DNA of 64,000 nt. Source: Thermoplasmata archaeon. Its GTDB lineage: Archaea; Thermoplasmatota; E2; JACPAO01; JAHFTW01. Below the pieces are notes generated by a model. The model was given only the letters and a program-made list of their open reading frames with translations. It ran no database searches and was not told the DNA's origin. Shown piece by piece: positions 17,288-21,695 of the stretch. The stretch spans positions 224,001 to 288,000 of the forward strand of contig JAXDQS010000010.1 in the NCBI GenBank assembly GCA_034667725.1, read 5' to 3'. The position numbers were made by a program, and so were the translations under genes. How positions within the stretch are numbered: position 1 is the stretch's first letter; every line of letters begins with the position of its first letter.

Positions 17288-17842
17288 GTGGCCCTGACGC
17301 CGTCCACGATGGTGGAGCTCGGCACGCCCGCCCCCGACTTCGCGCTGCCCGACACCGAGGGCCGCGCCGTCCGCCGCGCCGACTTCGCGGGCCGGCCGCT
17401 GCTGGTGATGTTCCTCTGCAACCACTGCCCCTACGTCAAGCACGTCGCCAAGGGGCTCGCCGACGCCACCGCCAAATACCTCCAGAAGGGGCTCGCCGTG
17501 GTCGCCATCAACGCCAACGACGCCGAGCGCTACCCCGAGGACTCCCCCGCCAACATGCGTCGCGAGGCCCGCGACCGCGGCTACCGCTTCCCCTACCTGT
17601 TCGACGAGACCCAGGAAGTGGCCCGCGCCTACCACGCCGCCTGCACGCCGGACTTCTTCCTCTACGGCCGCGACCACCGCCTGGTCTACCGCGGCCAGTT
17701 CGACGACTCGCGCCCAGGCAACGGCAAGCCCGTGACCGGCATCGACCTCACGATGGCCGTGGAAGGATTGCTGGCGGGCCGGGCGCCGATCGAGCCGCAG
17801 GTGGCGTCGATGGGATGCAACATCAAGTGGAAGGCGGCCTAG
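17288..17842 (+). CDS. Thioredoxin-fold AhpC/TSA-like redoxin
   Basis: APDFALPD, CNHCPYV, ACTPDFF, YRGQFDDSRPG, GCNIKW. Confidence 0.92.
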   Translation: MALTPSTMVELGTPAPDFALPDTEGRAVRRADFAGRPLLVMFLCNHCPYVKHVAKGLADATAKYLQKGLAVVAINANDAERYPEDSPANMRREARDRGYRFPYLFDETQEVARAYHAACTPDFFLYGRDHRLVYRGQFDDSRPGNGKPVTGIDLTMAVEGLLAGRAPIEPQVASMGCNIKWKAA

Positions 17843-17930: not shown

Positions 17931-18266
17931 GTGCAGGCCGTGGTGACGTACCGGGCGGTGGCCTTCGCGCTGGGCGCCCTGGGGCTGCTGGCGTTCGCCG
18001 CCGCCGGCGTGCTGGCCCTCACCGCGCAGCCGGACGCGTCCTGCGGCGCCATCGTCACCTGCAAGCGGGAGTCGCTGGCGAAGCAGGAGTTCCCGGTGGC
18101 GCTCGCCGCCGCGTTGGGCGCGGCGCTGATGGCGGCGGCCGTGCTGTTCCTGTTCCTGCAGTTCCGCCAGGACCGGCGCCGGCCGAAGCGGGCGGCGGCC
18201 GCGGCGCCTGCGCGCTCGCATGGGCCCATCGTCACGACGACGCGGCCGCGCCCGCCCCGGCCCTGA
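17931..18266 (+). CDS. Small 2-TM protein with a Cys-pair loop
   Basis: Two hydrophobic helices flanking SCGAIVTCK; basic tail. Confidence 0.55.
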   Translation: MQAVVTYRAVAFALGALGLLAFAAAGVLALTAQPDASCGAIVTCKRESLAKQEFPVALAAALGAALMAAAVLFLFLQFRQDRRRPKRAAAAAPARSHGPIVTTTRPRPPRP

Positions 18267-19736
18267 TCACATCAAGGGCGGGATGTCGCCCGGCAGCCCC
18301 GACGCGGAGCCGGGCGCGTCGTCGGAGCCGCGCAGGCCGCGCTGGCTGCTGGCCCGCTTGCGGTAGCGCCCGTCGATGCGGAGCTGTTGGATCGCGGTCT
18401 CGAACGCGGCGGTGACGGCGATGCGCACCGGCGCCGCGGGGTCGAGCACGCCGTCGGCGTCGGGCAGCAGCGGCTCGACGATCGGGTCGTGGCCGGCGTT
18501 GGCCACCAGCAGGTCGGCCAGGCGGGCGAAGCCGTCGGCGGCGGCGCGCAACGCCCACGGCGTCTTGCCGGGCCCGGCGTCGGCCGCGGCGCGCAAGGCC
18601 TTGGCGAGGTGGCGCTGCCAGCGGCCGCCGCCCGGGACGCAGGAGGGGTCGCCGAGGTGGGCGCCGGCGGCGCGCAGCAGGCGCTCGGCGTCGTCCTTGG
18701 CGCGGTCTTGCGCCATGGCGTTGTGCGCCGGCACGACGAGGGTGGCGGACGGGCCGGCGCCCTGCACCATCCAGCCGGCGTGGCCGGGGCGGCGCACCAG
18801 GGTGCCTGTGCCCAAGTCGGCGGCCGTGGCCTCCTCCAGGCGCGGGACGGGGGTCGCGCCGGTGGCGCCGCGCAGGCGGTCGAGCGCGCTGCGCGGGGCG
18901 TCGTTCCACACGGTGATGCCGCGGGTGGCGGCGCGCTCGGCCAGCTCGGGGTTGACCTCGCGGGCGCAGACGACCAGGTTGACGCCGAGCCGCTGGAGGT
19001 GGCCGAGGGCCTCCGTGCGCCTGCGGTCCTCCCCGTCGGTCCAGGCCGCAAGCGCGTGGTCGGCCGTCATGCGGTAGGACATGCGCTCGTTCCATGGGCC
19101 GGGCTTCCAGTCGTCGGTCAGGAGCAGCACGCGCACCGGCGTCGCGGCGGGCACGTCGCGCGGGAGGTGCTGGGGCGCCACCGCGACGCCGGGCAGCCAG
19201 GCGGGGCCGTCGGCCTCGGCCCGCACGTCGACGGCGTCGAGCCGGATTTCGCCGTCGAGGCTGAGATGGGCGAGGCCGCGCAGCACGGTGGCGGCAAGGT
19301 CGGGCTGGCCCGGCAGCACGCTGCGCAGGCTGGCGCCGGCCGCGTCGCGGCTCGCCATGGCGTTGAGTTCCGCGCGCGCCTGGCGCAGCGCGAGCTGGTA
19401 GCCGTCGAGCAGGGCCGCGACCGGGACGCCGGCTTGCCGGGCGCGGTCGGCGGCCCGCATCAGGTGGGCCGCGAGCAGGATGGCGCCCGTCGCCTGGTCG
19501 CCCGCGTGCTCCTGGACGGCGTGCGCGAGGTCGAGGTACGGCTGCAGGTCGGGATGGCGGATGCCGGCCTCGCGCAGCGCCGAGGCGCCCGACTTGAGGA
19601 TCCGGCCGGAGCCGTCGCCCTGCTCGATGCACTTGTCCAGGCCGTGCGGCCCGTAGGTGGGCCCCGCGAAGCCGGCGACCCAGTCCGCGACCCATGCCGT
19701 GACGGCCCGCTCCTCGCCCGCTTGGCCTTCCTCCAC
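18267..19736 (-). CDS. Divergent group II chaperonin (thermosome/TCP-1-like) with degenerate ATPase motifs; start uncertain (19736 or 19775)
   Basis: TYGPHGLDK, IRHP, GDQATG, VPGGG, NAGHDPI, GVLDP...LRID are colinear with thermosome motifs. Confidence 0.82.
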   Translation of the reverse strand: MEEGQAGEERAVTAWVADWVAGFAGPTYGPHGLDKCIEQGDGSGRILKSGASALREAGIRHPDLQPYLDLAHAVQEHAGDQATGAILLAAHLMRAADRARQAGVPVAALLDGYQLALRQARAELNAMASRDAAGASLRSVLPGQPDLAATVLRGLAHLSLDGEIRLDAVDVRAEADGPAWLPGVAVAPQHLPRDVPAATPVRVLLLTDDWKPGPWNERMSYRMTADHALAAWTDGEDRRRTEALGHLQRLGVNLVVCAREVNPELAERAATRGITVWNDAPRSALDRLRGATGATPVPRLEEATAADLGTGTLVRRPGHAGWMVQGAGPSATLVVPAHNAMAQDRAKDDAERLLRAAGAHLGDPSCVPGGGRWQRHLAKALRAAADAGPGKTPWALRAAADGFARLADLLVANAGHDPIVEPLLPDADGVLDPAAPVRIAVTAAFETAIQQLRIDGRYRKRASSQRGLRGSDDAPGSASGLPGDIPPLM

Positions 19737-19795
19737 GCGGCGCCGAAGCAAGGGCTTCCCAAAGGCTTTCAGCAAGACCTGCCTCGCGCGGCCCG

Positions 19796-20827
19796 ATGCA
19801 GCTCGAGGTGGCCCTCCTGGCCGTCGTCGCTGTCGGGACCGCCATTCTGGTGGTCGCCGCCGCCGGCCTGCTGTTCCGCATGGCCCGCCGCCACGCCGAC
19901 GTCGTCCCCGCCGCCCGCGCCAAGGCCGTCGGCGCCCTCGTGGCCAGCCTGGTGCTCGGCGGCGTCGGCATCGTGGCCCTGCACGGCTTCGAGTCCGCCG
20001 GCCACGACGGCATCCACGCCACCTTCACCCAGAACCTCAACAAGACCGTCGGCGAGTCCGACTACCTCGAGGCCCAGAAGGCGCGCGTCAGCAAGACCAA
20101 CGCCATCGACAACATCCTGCCCGCCAAGATCCTGGCCGCCCAAGACGCGGTCAACGCGACCCCGGAAGGCACCAAGCAGCGCACCAACGCCGAGGGCAAC
20201 CTCACCGCCCTCCAGGCCGCCCTCGTCACCGCCCACGCCGACCTTGCCGCCGCGGAGGCCACCATGAAGCGCCTCGCCGGCAACCACCTCCTCTGGCTCA
20301 AGGTCCAGCCGCACTTGGCCAAGCACACGCCCGAAGGCGACGCCGAGGCCCACGACCTCATCGAGCGCTCCCTGCACGCCAGCACCGTCGGCGGCGTCCT
20401 CTCCATCGGCCCCGACGGCGCCTGCGCCCGCGACGCCAAGACCGGCGACTGCACCCAGCCCGTCACCGCGGCGGCGCTCGAGCACGACTTCAAGGACTCC
20501 CACCAGCAGCCGCTCACCATGGAGCAGGGCTTCGAGGACGCCTACCACCACAAGGCGGAGTTCACCCACCAGATGGAGAGCCAGATGGCCTGGTTCTTCT
20601 ACCCCAGCCTGACCGGCCTGTTCCTCGCGCCGTTCGCCTTCGTCGGCGGCCACTTCCTCAGCCGCGCCTTCGTCCCCAGCGACTCAGTCGGCTTCAAGAA
20701 GTACCCCGGCACCAGCGCCGGCTTCTTCCTGCTGCTGGGCGGGTTTGGCTTGCCGGCGCTGCCCTTCAGTGCATGGCTGCTGCGCGACTTCGCGAAGCGC
20801 AGCGCCGAAGGGCAGATCGCGCTGTAG
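19796..20827 (+). CDS. Hypothetical membrane protein with an extracellular coiled-coil loop
   Basis: 2 N-terminal and 2 C-terminal TM; strong GC3 bias. Confidence 0.75.
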   Translation: MQLEVALLAVVAVGTAILVVAAAGLLFRMARRHADVVPAARAKAVGALVASLVLGGVGIVALHGFESAGHDGIHATFTQNLNKTVGESDYLEAQKARVSKTNAIDNILPAKILAAQDAVNATPEGTKQRTNAEGNLTALQAALVTAHADLAAAEATMKRLAGNHLLWLKVQPHLAKHTPEGDAEAHDLIERSLHASTVGGVLSIGPDGACARDAKTGDCTQPVTAAALEHDFKDSHQQPLTMEQGFEDAYHHKAEFTHQMESQMAWFFYPSLTGLFLAPFAFVGGHFLSRAFVPSDSVGFKKYPGTSAGFFLLLGGFGLPALPFSAWLLRDFAKRSAEGQIAL

Positions 20828-20900
20828 GACACGCGGGTGTAGCCACATCGGCCGCAAGCCTGAACCCTTGCCTTGCACCTGCCGCCACGGTCGGTCGGAC

Positions 20901-21695
20901 ATGCAAAGCACCCCCATCCTTTCCAGCATCGCAACCGTCGCCTTGGCGCTCGCCTTGGCGGTGCCGGGCGCCGCGTACCACGTCACGCCGGACGCCTTCA
21001 ACAACCAGAACGGCCTCGACGCCCAGGAGTGGGGCCGGTCCCCGAGCGTGTACTTCCCGCTTGGCGACCCGTTCACCGACGACCAGCCCCTCTGCATCAC
21101 GCTGCGCGCCATCGCGAACTTCGTCCCGGACCCATCCCTGCGGACCACCCTGAACGCCCTGCTAAGCCTCGTCTGCAAGCCCTACTATGCCTGGAACGCC
21201 GCCGACGCCATCTTCGCCTTCCCCGTCTGCGAGGCGCCGCCTGCCTTCCCGGACCCGGGCCACAGCGGCTTCGGCAAGCTTTGCTTCATGAGCCCCGGCT
21301 TCGCGGGCGTCACATGCGCCTTCGTCGGCACCGGCGTCGACCAAGGCGGCTCGAACGGCTTCTACAACCCCTACACGGGCGGAGCCTGCGCCGCGGCCCC
21401 GCCCACCATGGCGCCGATGGGCGGGCCCGCCTGGTTCAGGATCACCATGCAGTCGACCCATCCCGCTACGCCAGGCAGCGACGTGCAGTTCGTCGCCTCC
21501 ATCGGCGGGATCTCCTGCCCGCCCGCCACCGCCCTCGTGTACGACGACCTCTTCGCCCAGACCGTGGCCAACGGCCACGTCACGGGCGTCCCGGACGTCG
21601 AGCCGGCGCCCGCCAGCTTCGGCGGCTACACGGTCGAGAGCGTGGCCGGCCCCGCCGGCCTCACGGCGTGCGGGGCGTCGCCGATGTACGTCTGA
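20901..21695 (+). CDS. Secreted Cys-containing hypothetical protein
   Basis: Signal peptide ending PGAA; several Cys; strong GC3 bias. Confidence 0.7.
   Translation: MQSTPILSSIATVALALALAVPGAAYHVTPDAFNNQNGLDAQEWGRSPSVYFPLGDPFTDDQPLCITLRAIANFVPDPSLRTTLNALLSLVCKPYYAWNAADAIFAFPVCEAPPAFPDPGHSGFGKLCFMSPGFAGVTCAFVGTGVDQGGSNGFYNPYTGGACAAAPPTMAPMGGPAWFRITMQSTHPATPGSDVQFVASIGGISCPPATALVYDDLFAQTVANGHVTGVPDVEPAPASFGGYTVESVAGPAGLTACGASPMYV

What the first reader, a model, noticed from the sequence alone, without database searches (positions are those of the whole stretch)
18267..19775. Full-length group II chaperonin homologue with a degenerate ATPase site
Seen versus canonical thermosome motifs: LGPKGMDK is YGPHGLDK (kept), TNDG is LKSG (lost), GDGTTT is GDQATG (degenerate), and the region of the catalytic Asp reads RAKDDAERL (diverged). 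VPGGG, NAG.DP and LRID are retained and the ORF is intact (about 490 aa). Known: eukaryotic BBS6/10/12 are chaperonin-derived assembly factors with diverged ATP motifs. Inference: an archaeal pseudo-chaperonin acting as a regulatory subunit or dedicated assembly factor. It is head-to-head (20-60 bp) with a 4-TM protein gene.
Basis: partly seen in the sequence, partly recalled or inferred. Interest (0 to 1): 0.7.

Follow-up and report, generated by a model that had tools for sequence, protein, structure and literature searches.

The report
Non-catalytic thermosome paralogue with membrane partner
This is a real, selection-maintained copy of the archaeal protein-folding machine (thermosome) that has lost the residues needed to burn ATP, has gained a near-invariant tail, and is inherited in one archaeal family together with a neighbouring membrane-protein gene of no known family.

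Summary
Window 18267-19775 (-) encodes a full three-domain group II chaperonin homologue (Pfam Cpn60_TCP1 E 8.8e-46; AF2 pLDDT 87; best match Mm-cpn, TM 0.79).

Across 75 family members the GP, GD..T and GGG loops and Asp445 are kept. The stem-loop Asp, the nucleotide-sensing-loop Lys and the intermediate-domain catalytic Asp are lost, and about 23 residues are deleted between NAG.DP and GV.DP.

It is not a decaying duplicate:
- It was found in 30 of 32 genomes of one family-rank Thermoplasmatota lineage, and in none of six genomes of the sister families.
- Closest-pair dN/dS is 0.25-0.45, although dN is 5-10 times that of the single canonical thermosome.
- 62 of 75 members end in GD[IVL]PPLM.

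New here: the 4-TM neighbour (19796-20827) has the same phyletic range (18/18 genomes in the family, 0/382 elsewhere in the phylum sample). It lies head-to-head with the chaperonin gene in all genera but one.

Best reading: a non-hydrolysing pseudo-thermosome that works with this membrane protein. Binding between the two is not shown. The likely start is GTG 19736 (489 aa). Other first-stage readers flagged this same stretch; no matching note on other DNA turned up.

The parts
18267..19736 (-). Pseudo-thermosome CDS, probable extent (GTG 19736 to TGA 18267-18269; 489 aa). The maximal ORF reaches TTG 19775 (502 aa; residue numbers in this report count from that TTG).
   Evidence: The start is argued: the TATA-like patch of the neighbour lies inside the first 13 codons of the TTG ORF, those residues are not conserved and have pLDDT under 50, and an independent NCBI gene call in an orthologous locus leaves a 51-bp spacer.
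19587..19598 (-). LKSG, in place of the stem-loop TNDG; the catalytic Asp position is Ser62.
   Evidence: hhalign. The column is S58/gap8/G3/R3/T1/K1/D1 in 75 members. The role of this Asp is described in PMC5635000.
19485..19502 (-). GDQATG, a remnant of the GDGTTT P-loop. Asp93 (Mg ligand position) and Thr96 are kept.
   Evidence: G92 75/75, D93 73/75, position 94 Q44/G23/H7, position 95 A61, T96 67/75.
18663..18689 (-). AERLLRAAG helix segment that replaces ER...DAL; no conserved acidic residue at the catalytic-Asp position.
   Evidence: E364 and R368 75/75; column 365 R67/A4/K2/G1/S1; column 369 A62/T5/S3 and others, none acidic. Asp/Glu361 (69/75) lies one helical turn earlier.
18612..18635 (-). 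PGGGRWQR: GGG loop kept, followed by a family-specific invariant Trp-Gln.
   Evidence: G382 75/75, G384 74/75, W386 75/75, Q387 74/75.
18438..18500 (-). NAGHDP...GVLDP segment carrying a deletion of about 23 residues relative to canonical thermosomes; Asp445 is invariant.
18270..18335 (-). Family-specific C-terminal tail LRG...GD[IVL]PPLM-COOH, predicted disordered.
   Evidence: L481 71/75, R482 74/75, G483 75/75, G496 72/75, D497 74/75, P499 75/75, M502 72/75; 62 of 75 end in GD[IVL]PPLM. pLDDT is under 50. The profile search shows only family members reach the profile's C-terminal end.
19737..19795 (.). Divergent promoter spacer. The A/T-richer patch AAAGGCTTTCAG (19761-19772) lies about 31 nt before the ATG of the membrane-protein gene and 25-36 nt before GTG 19736.
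   Evidence: Most orthologous loci carry an A/T-rich TATA-like box at the same distance from the partner's ATG (GG[TC]TTTAAG in most g1 loci), and many carry a separate TTAAC/TTAAG box about 28 nt before the chaperonin start. Inference: leaderless or short-leader transcripts.
19796..20827 (+). Partner gene: a 343-aa membrane protein with 4 hydrophobic helices (about 5-27, 44-63, 266-290, 305-329), a roughly 200-residue helical stalk between TM2 and TM3, and an invariant C-terminus ..GQI[AS]L.
   Evidence: No Pfam, NCBIfam or PADLOC family. AF2 pLDDT 94.
20675..20710 (+). Most conserved loop of the partner (PSDSVGFK.YPG) between TM3 and TM4.
   Evidence: Alignment A2: S295, G299, K301, Y303 and P304 are invariant in 18 sequences.

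Best explanation
The gene encodes a lineage-specific, non-hydrolysing paralogue of the thermosome (a 'pseudo-thermosome').

Shown:
- It keeps the whole group II chaperonin fold, including the lid region.
- It keeps the loops that in canonical chaperonins touch the ribose, the alpha/beta-phosphates and Mg: Gly-Pro, Asp93/Thr96, GGG and Asp445.
- It has lost every element that senses or attacks the gamma-phosphate: the stem-loop Asn-Asp, the nucleotide-sensing-loop Lys (loop deleted) and the intermediate-domain Asp.
- It has also lost about 23 residues of the equatorial domain.

Inferred:
- It cannot run the ATP-hydrolysis-driven lid-closing cycle. It therefore acts as a static, probably open, binding platform (holdase or scaffold) that may still bind nucleotide as a structural ligand.
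- Its gene has been inherited vertically, since the ancestor of one family-rank clade of uncultured high-GC Thermoplasmatota, together with a divergently transcribed gene for a 4-TM protein with a long helical stalk. The two products therefore most likely work in one pathway at the membrane.
- The near-invariant C-terminal peptide GD[IVL]PPLM is the likeliest docking element.
- Direct binding, oligomeric state and the client are not shown.
For: - **Family and fold:** Pfam 157 bits. PDB sequence hits are to group II chaperonins only. AF2 gives pLDDT 87.3 and pTM 0.83; Foldseek top hit is Mm-cpn apo 5w79_A, TMq 0.79.
- **Site states in 75 members, with profile-profile alignment:** the residue roles are taken from PMC5635000. 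D386A in Mm-cpn binds but does not hydrolyse ATP (PMC5019054).
- **Selection:** there are 35 invariant columns among 26 sequences that share 37-61% identity with the window protein. NG86 dN/dS is 0.25-0.45 in the three closest pairs, with dN 5-10 times that of the canonical thermosome of the same genomes (canonical 79-90% identical versus 38-56%). GC3 is 0.97.
- **Distribution:** the chaperonin is in 30 of 32 genomes of family f1 and in none of 6 in f2/f3. The partner is in 29 of 32 f1 genomes and none of 6 in f2/f3, and in 18/18 f1 versus 0/382 genomes of other families in the phylum sample.
- **Arrangement:** the two genes are head-to-head in all 21 loci with enough flank. Both are kept although unlinked in genus g7.
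- **Synteny and descent:** synteny with L7Ae-S28e-L24e-AhpC-like is conserved. The family tree repeats host pairs such as (G004,G005), (G009,G002) and (G006,G007).
- **Family boundary:** the profile search of 1.84 billion representatives gives about 36 representatives at 314-631 bits. All reach the C-terminal tail. Then there is a gap down to canonical chaperonins at 200 bits or less.
Against: - No experiment or expression data exist.
- Glycine-rich loops may be kept for structural reasons only, so nucleotide binding is not established.
- An acidic residue (Asp/Glu361, 69 of 75) lies one helical turn before the catalytic position and could in principle substitute.
- Conserved adjacency of divergent genes shows co-inheritance and probably co-regulation, not physical interaction.
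- The topology of the partner is unresolved. If its stalk is outside the cell, as weakly suggested by N-x-S/T sequons and a Cys pair, only short loops are available for contact.
Confidence: 0.55

Rival explanations
1. It is a non-catalytic subunit that co-assembles with the single canonical thermosome subunit into hetero-oligomeric rings. It would give them asymmetry or regulation, as the low-activity CCT subunits do. The membrane protein is then only a co-regulated neighbour, or a tether for the whole thermosome.
For: Family f1 genomes carry exactly one canonical thermosome gene plus this paralogue, whereas sister families carry 2-3 canonical paralogues. The stem-loop hairpin and the terminal segments that build the intra-ring sheet are predicted to be present. 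A clade of this family with the f1 canonical thermosomes is not quite rejected (p-AU 0.054).
Against: Identity to the canonical subunit is only about 20-26%. There are deletions in the equatorial domain, where ring contacts lie. The rate is 5-10 times faster than the presumed ring partner. The conserved tail differs from the Gly/Met-rich tails of the canonical subunits. The strict co-distribution with the membrane protein is left unexplained.
Confidence: 0.2
2. It is still an active, atypical ATPase chaperonin that uses alternative catalytic residues (for example Asp/Glu361, Arg365 or Arg368) and folds a dedicated client, possibly the neighbouring membrane protein's stalk.
For: Asp93, Thr96, Gly-Pro, GGG and Asp445 are near-invariant. 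Bacterial group III chaperonins also lack the nucleotide-sensing loop and use an Arg instead (PMC5635000). The family has near-invariant Arg365 and invariant Arg368 in the helix that faces the site.
Against: Both acidic residues proposed to activate the attacking water are missing in nearly all members. Loss of one of them alone blocks hydrolysis in Mm-cpn and cut basal ATPase activity to 4.7% of wild type in Ch-CPN D373A. No conserved basic residue remains in the shortened sensing-loop region.
Confidence: 0.12
3. It is a decaying duplicate (pseudogene in the making) with no function.
For: It evolves very fast and its motifs are eroded.
Against: The frames are intact wherever the gene is not cut by a contig end (the profile search found it in 30 of 32 f1 genomes). 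dN/dS is well below 1 in the closest pairs. There are 35 invariant columns. A newly gained tail is near-invariant. Codon usage is typical for the genome.
Confidence: 0.02

Closest known systems
Archaeal thermosome subunits (group II chaperonins; e.g. Methanococcus maripaludis Mm-cpn, Thermoplasma acidophilum thermosome alpha/beta)
   Same: Same Pfam family and the same three-domain fold with a lid-length apical protrusion. GP, GD, GGG, NAG.DP and LRID are retained.
   Different: NCBIfam thermosome_arch scores 121.8 bits against a cut-off of 671.1. Both catalytic Asp residues and the sensing-loop Lys are lost. There are deletions of about 11 and about 23 residues. The tail is a new conserved GD[IVL]PPLM instead of a Gly/Met-rich tail. 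The rate is 5-10 times faster. The gene is tightly linked to a membrane-protein gene.
Eukaryotic chaperonin-like proteins MKKS/BBS6, BBS10, BBS12 and CCT8L
   Same: They are group II derived. They keep the Gly-Pro ATP-binding dipeptide while the hydrolysis motif has degenerated. They are thought to act outside the normal folding cycle (PMC2846930).
   Different: They are not orthologous. The present family is a separate clade confined to one Thermoplasmatota family. No BBSome-like client is known, and the partner here is a membrane protein of no known family.
Bacterial group III chaperonins (Carboxydothermus hydrogenoformans Ch-CPN)
   Same: Thermosome-like, with a shortened or absent nucleotide-sensing loop (PMC5635000).
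   Different: Group III keeps GDGTTT, both catalytic Asp residues and an Arg that contacts the gamma-phosphate, and is an active ATPase. The present family lacks these. Ch-CPN is not among the 60 best PDB sequence hits.
Divergent extra thermosome paralogues of Methanosarcina acetivorans (Maeder et al. 2005, J Mol Evol 60:409; cited in PMC5220055)
   Same: A precedent for unusual, divergent group II paralogues beside canonical subunits in an archaeon. Their properties are recalled from memory and were not checked here.
   Different: The profile search found no intermediate-scoring relatives outside the Thermoplasmatota family, so they are not members of this family. No membrane-partner linkage is known to me for them.

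Membership tests
Pfam PF00118 Cpn60_TCP1 superfamily | HMM score above the gathering threshold | tested here: met
   157 bits against 34.3, residues 37-432.
Group II chaperonin fold | Equatorial, intermediate and apical domains with a built-in helical protrusion | tested here: met
   AF2 pLDDT 87.3. Foldseek top 50 hits are all thermosome, Mm-cpn or CCT chains, best TMq 0.79. The lid region aligns without a length change.
Canonical thermosome subunit (NCBIfam TIGR02339 / NF041082 / NF041083) | Score above the curated cut-off | tested here: not met
   121.8 against 671.1; 94.9 against 450; 95.5 against 400.
Canonical thermosome subunit | Stem-loop catalytic Asp (TNDG) | tested here: not met
   Ser62 in the window protein. 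The column holds Asp in 1 of 75 members.
Canonical thermosome subunit | Intermediate-domain catalytic Asp (Mm-cpn D386 position) | tested here: not met
   Arg365 (hhalign) or Ala369 (MAFFT), with no acidic residue in either column in 75 members. The phmmer register gives Asp362, a column that is acidic in only 40 of 75. The register was not fixed by residue-level superposition.
Canonical thermosome subunit | Nucleotide-sensing loop with a gamma-phosphate Lys | tested here: not met
   A gap of about 10-11 residues covers the loop in both alignments, and no conserved basic residue remains.
Canonical thermosome subunit | GDGTTT P-loop | tested here: inconclusive
   GD is kept (73/75) and the second Thr is kept (67/75). 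The first Thr is Ala in 61 of 75, and Gly94 is Gln or His in 51 of 75.
Canonical thermosome subunit | Assembly into double 8- or 9-membered rings | not tested
It needs native purification or multimer modelling.
BBS6/10/12-type chaperonin-like assembly factors | Common descent with the eukaryotic BBS/MKKS clades | tested here: not met
   The family forms its own 100%-supported clade confined to one archaeal family. Best PDB sequence hits are thermosomes rather than CCT. BBS sequences themselves were not placed in the tree.
BBS6/10/12-type chaperonin-like assembly factors | Retained Gly-Pro with a degenerated hydrolysis site (functional resemblance) | tested here: met
   G42 and P43 are 75/75 and the catalytic residues are lost. 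The criterion is from PMC2846930.

The most novel reading that the evidence does not exclude
This would be the first prokaryotic 'pseudo-chaperonin system': an ATP-hydrolysis-independent, thermosome-derived ring or platform that docks through its invariant C-terminal GD[IVL]PPLM peptide to a dedicated 4-TM stalk protein, forming a membrane-anchored chaperonin-like module (for example for assembly or quality control of envelope proteins). It would have arisen independently of the eukaryotic BBS chaperonin-like proteins.
Probability: 0.3. Interest if true: 0.8.

Novelty: new variant of a known kind. Interest (0 to 1): 0.62.

Why it matters
Chaperonin-derived proteins that have given up the ATPase cycle are known from eukaryotes (BBS6/10/12, CCT8L). 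How a folding machine is re-purposed in this way is poorly understood. I found no description of an archaeal counterpart in the papers searched.

This family offers a simple, two-gene, prokaryotic case. There is one canonical thermosome, one non-catalytic paralogue and one co-inherited membrane partner. It could show what a chaperonin scaffold can do without hydrolysis, and whether thermosome-like proteins have dedicated membrane roles.

It also matters for annotation. These genes are currently named 'archaeal chaperonin', 'TCP-1/cpn60 family protein' or 'GroEL' in public records. That overstates the folding capacity of these genomes, which have a single canonical subunit.

Tried and rejected
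- **Complex prediction, chaperonin plus membrane partner:** no verdict (score 0.00). This counts neither for nor against binding.
- **Membrane partner, family searches:** no Pfam, NCBIfam or PADLOC family. The Atlas feature search scored 0.77 (chance level) and its structure rows had TM at most 0.33.
- **Membrane partner, fold searches:** Foldseek against the PDB gave no hit at E <= 0.001. The Atlas shape search gave TM at most 0.33. VIA-align wide gave only generic helical hairpins, Z <= 9.1, below the level that means anything for helical bundles.
- **Origin of the paralogue:** two ML trees (LG+G4, and LG+C20 PMSF) place the family on a very long stem outside all sampled canonical group II sequences. 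That position is prone to long-branch attraction. The AU test of a clade with the f1 canonical thermosomes is borderline (p 0.054). The origin stays unresolved.
- **dN/dS:** dS is about 1 for the paralogue and is depressed by codon bias in the canonical gene. Only the closest pairs are informative.
- **P0080 and P0082:** these roughly 1050-aa proteins scored between the family and canonical chaperonins. They proved to be tandem-fused canonical-type chaperonins, not intermediates.
- **Third gene:** no third gene is conserved next to the pair beyond the AhpC-like gene that belongs to the ribosomal-protein neighbourhood.
- **Earlier-findings look-up by the partner's sequence:** nothing related was returned.
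Full report
**1. What is there**

The minus-strand ORF 18267-19775 translates without stops into 502 residues. It matches Pfam Cpn60_TCP1 at E 8.8e-46 (157 bits, residues 37-432). Third-position GC is 0.97, like the surrounding genes.

The PDB sequence search returns only group II chaperonins: a resurrected ancestral group II chaperonin at 5e-32, then thermosomes, then CCT subunits. An AlphaFold2 model built on 26 family members is confident (pLDDT 87.3, pTM 0.83). It has all three domains. The best Foldseek match is apo Mm-cpn 5w79_A (TMq 0.79). Residues 1-15 and 473-502 are disordered.

The genome is a 2.3-Mb, 90%-complete, roughly 72% GC archaeon. It has only one other Cpn60_TCP1 gene, a canonical thermosome at 618 bits on the same contig.

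**2. State of the ATP site**

I aligned 21 orthologues taken from related genomes with canonical thermosomes. I made a profile-profile alignment of the family against 20 canonical group II sequences. I then tabulated 75 full-length family members. Residue roles come from the Ch-CPN structure paper (PMC5635000) and the Mm-cpn D386A work (PMC5019054).

Kept:
- Gly42-Pro43 (75/75)
- Asp93 of the P-loop (73/75) and Thr96 (67/75)
- Gly382 and Gly384 of the GGG loop (75/75 and 74/75)
- Asp445 of GV.DP (75/75)

Lost:
- The stem-loop Asn-Asp (TNDG) reads LKSG here. The Asp column is Ser in 58, a gap in 8, and Asp in 1 of 75.
- The nucleotide-sensing loop with its gamma-phosphate Lys is covered by a 10-11-residue deletion.
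- The first P-loop Thr is Ala in 61 of 75.
- The intermediate-domain catalytic Asp is gone (see below).
- A further deletion of about 23 residues removes the helix and hairpin between NAG.DP and GV.DP.

The register at the catalytic Asp is ambiguous:
- The ungapped hhalign register is supported by equal spacing from the preceding strand to PGGG. It puts the Asp on near-invariant Arg365.
- MAFFT keeps ER on ER and puts it on Ala369.
- Neither of those columns holds an acidic residue in any member.
- Only the pairwise phmmer register keeps an Asp (Asp362), and that column is acidic in 40 of 75.
- A caveat: Asp/Glu361 (69/75) lies one helical turn earlier.

Overall, the contacts to ribose, alpha/beta-phosphate and Mg are partly preserved. 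Everything that touches or attacks the gamma-phosphate is gone. This is the pattern described for the eukaryotic BBS and CCT8L chaperonin-like proteins (PMC2846930).

**3. It is a conserved family, not a decaying copy**

- Full-length orthologues (38-61% identity, matching through the last residue) occur in the genomes of the same family-rank group f1. They do not occur in the two sister families of the order, whose best hits are ordinary thermosomes that match only to residue 432.
- With the family profile, 30 of 32 f1 genomes have it. The two misses are 79% complete.
- In 5.8 billion proteins there are 58 clusters at 38% identity or more. Those that carry an organism label come from Thermoplasmata or Thermoplasmatota MAGs (one is labelled only 'bacterium'), and the named ones are called 'archaeal chaperonin', 'TCP-1/cpn60 family protein' or 'GroEL'.
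- A profile search of 1.84 billion representatives finds about 36 representatives at 314-631 bits. All reach the C-terminal end of the profile. Canonical chaperonins follow at 200 bits or less and stop near profile position 427. There are no intermediates.
- The canonical thermosome of the same genomes is 79-90% identical to the window genome's own canonical thermosome; the paralogues are 38-56% identical to the window protein.
- NG86 dN is 5-10 times higher for the paralogue, but dN/dS in the closest pairs is 0.25, 0.25 and 0.45.
- 35 columns are invariant among 26 sequences.
- The family is monophyletic (100% support), and its inner branching repeats host pairs seen in the canonical tree. 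That indicates vertical descent.

**4. A newly gained, near-invariant tail**

After LRID the canonical Gly/Met-rich tail is replaced by K/R-x-S...LRGG...GSPKGMPGD[IVL]PPLM-COOH. Of 75 members, 62 end exactly in GD[IVL]PPLM. Asp497 (74/75) and Pro499 (75/75) are essentially invariant. This is the most conserved contiguous stretch of a protein that otherwise averages about 45% identity. Because it is disordered in the model and sits at the very C-terminus, I read it as a docking peptide. That is an inference.

**5. The partner gene**

The 343-aa ORF at 19796-20827 has four hydrophobic helices and no Pfam, NCBIfam or PADLOC family.

*Arrangement and distribution*
- It lies head-to-head with the chaperonin gene in all 21 related loci with enough flank, and in an independently annotated NCBI contig with a 51-bp spacer.
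- It is in 29 of 32 f1 genomes and in none of 6 genomes of the sister families.
- It is in 18/18 f1 genomes versus 0/382 genomes of other families in a phylum-wide sample.
- In genus g7 the two genes sit on different contigs, yet both are retained.
- The pair occupies a conserved chromosomal position next to L7Ae-S28e-L24e and an AhpC-like gene. No third gene is consistently attached.

*Sequence and structure*
- The alignment shows a conserved TM1-TM2 loop (RRH.D.DPRA..K), a very conserved TM3-TM4 loop (PSDSVGFK.YPG) and an invariant C-terminus (GQI[AS]L).
- AlphaFold2 gives a confident all-helical model (pLDDT 94). A stalk of long antiparallel helices, about 200 residues, is continuous with TM2 and TM3.
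- No solved or predicted structure matches it beyond generic helical hairpins.
- N-x-S/T sequons are about 2.4 times enriched in the stalk, and a Cys pair occurs only there. This weakly suggests the stalk is extracellular, which would leave the two conserved loops facing the cytoplasm.

**6. Promoters and the start codon**

Most orthologous loci carry an A/T-rich TATA-like box about 30 nt before the partner's ATG (GG[TC]TTTAAG in most g1 loci, other A/T-rich forms in the other genera). Many also carry a TTAAC/TTAAG box about 28 nt before the chaperonin start on the other strand. This fits back-to-back promoters with leaderless or short-leader transcripts, which is an inference.

In the window, the only A/T-richer patch (AAAGGCTTTCAG, 19761-19772) lies 31 nt before the partner's ATG and 25-36 nt before GTG 19736. 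That places it inside the first codons of the TTG-19775 ORF. The first 13 residues are neither conserved nor confidently modelled. The probable CDS is therefore 18267-19736 (489 aa).

**7. Origin**

Family f1 genomes have one canonical thermosome plus this paralogue. The sister families have two or three canonical genes that are their own lineage-specific duplicates. A duplicate that diverged in a burst in the f1 ancestor is therefore the simplest scenario.

The trees do not confirm it. They place the family on a very long stem outside all canonical sequences, a position prone to long-branch attraction. The AU test of a clade with the f1 canonical genes is borderline (p 0.054). The origin is unresolved.

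**8. Interpretation**

*Shown:* this is a selection-maintained, family-restricted group II chaperonin paralogue without the hydrolysis and gamma-phosphate-sensing residues. It has a new conserved tail and is co-inherited with a novel membrane protein.

*Inferred:* it cannot drive lid closure by ATP hydrolysis. It acts as a static platform that works with the membrane protein, perhaps docked through its tail.

*Not shown:* nucleotide binding, oligomeric state, any interaction, and the client.

*Rivals:* a non-catalytic subunit of mixed thermosome rings (about 0.2); an atypical but active ATPase (about 0.12); a decaying duplicate (about 0.02, effectively refuted).

The one complex-prediction job gave no verdict. 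Expression data could not be obtained.

**9. Novelty**

Non-catalytic chaperonin derivatives are known in eukaryotes. Divergent thermosome paralogues have been noted in Methanosarcina (cited; their details are recalled from memory and were not checked). In the papers searched I found no description of an archaeal pseudo-thermosome family with a dedicated membrane partner.

I rate it a new variant of a known kind, of moderate-to-high interest to chaperonin and archaeal cell biologists.

Noticed in passing
P0080 and P0082 (metagenomic proteins): These are proteins of about 1050 aa made of two tandem, fused group II chaperonin units (Pfam 1025 and 814 bits, two stretches each). The second unit has a partly altered P-loop (GDGTKA / GDGAKT). 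Single-chain double thermosomes of this kind seem unusual.
   Followed up: partly
G026 contig 67, 4072-13258 (loci L066-L068); G025 and G030 (L064, L065, L069, L070): The sister families of the order carry two or three canonical thermosome genes, and G026 has three within 9 kb. These are lineage-specific duplicates. Family f1 has a single canonical gene.
   Followed up: partly
window 17931-18266 (+): A 111-aa ORF with two hydrophobic segments and a Pro/Arg-rich tail ends exactly where the chaperonin's stop codon begins (convergent, 0-bp gap). Recognisable homologues occur only in the three closest relatives.
   Followed up: partly
window 17288-17842 (+): An AhpC/TSA-Redoxin family gene (Pfam 2e-22) keeps its place between the L7Ae-S28e-L24e cluster and the chaperonin/membrane-protein pair across genera, with 0.5-4.3 kb of variable DNA in between.
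   Followed up: partly
window 20745-21695 (+): A 316-aa ORF of no known family overlaps the 3' end of the membrane-protein gene by 83 nt if it starts at its TTG. An internal Met followed by a hydrophobic stretch suggests a later start and secretion. It is not conserved next to the pair in other genera.
   Followed up: no
G018 contigs 49 and 4; G047 contigs 140 and 41 (loci L060, L061): In one genus of the family the chaperonin paralogue and the membrane-protein gene lie on different contigs, yet both are intact. This is a natural test case for whether the pair needs to be linked.
   Followed up: partly
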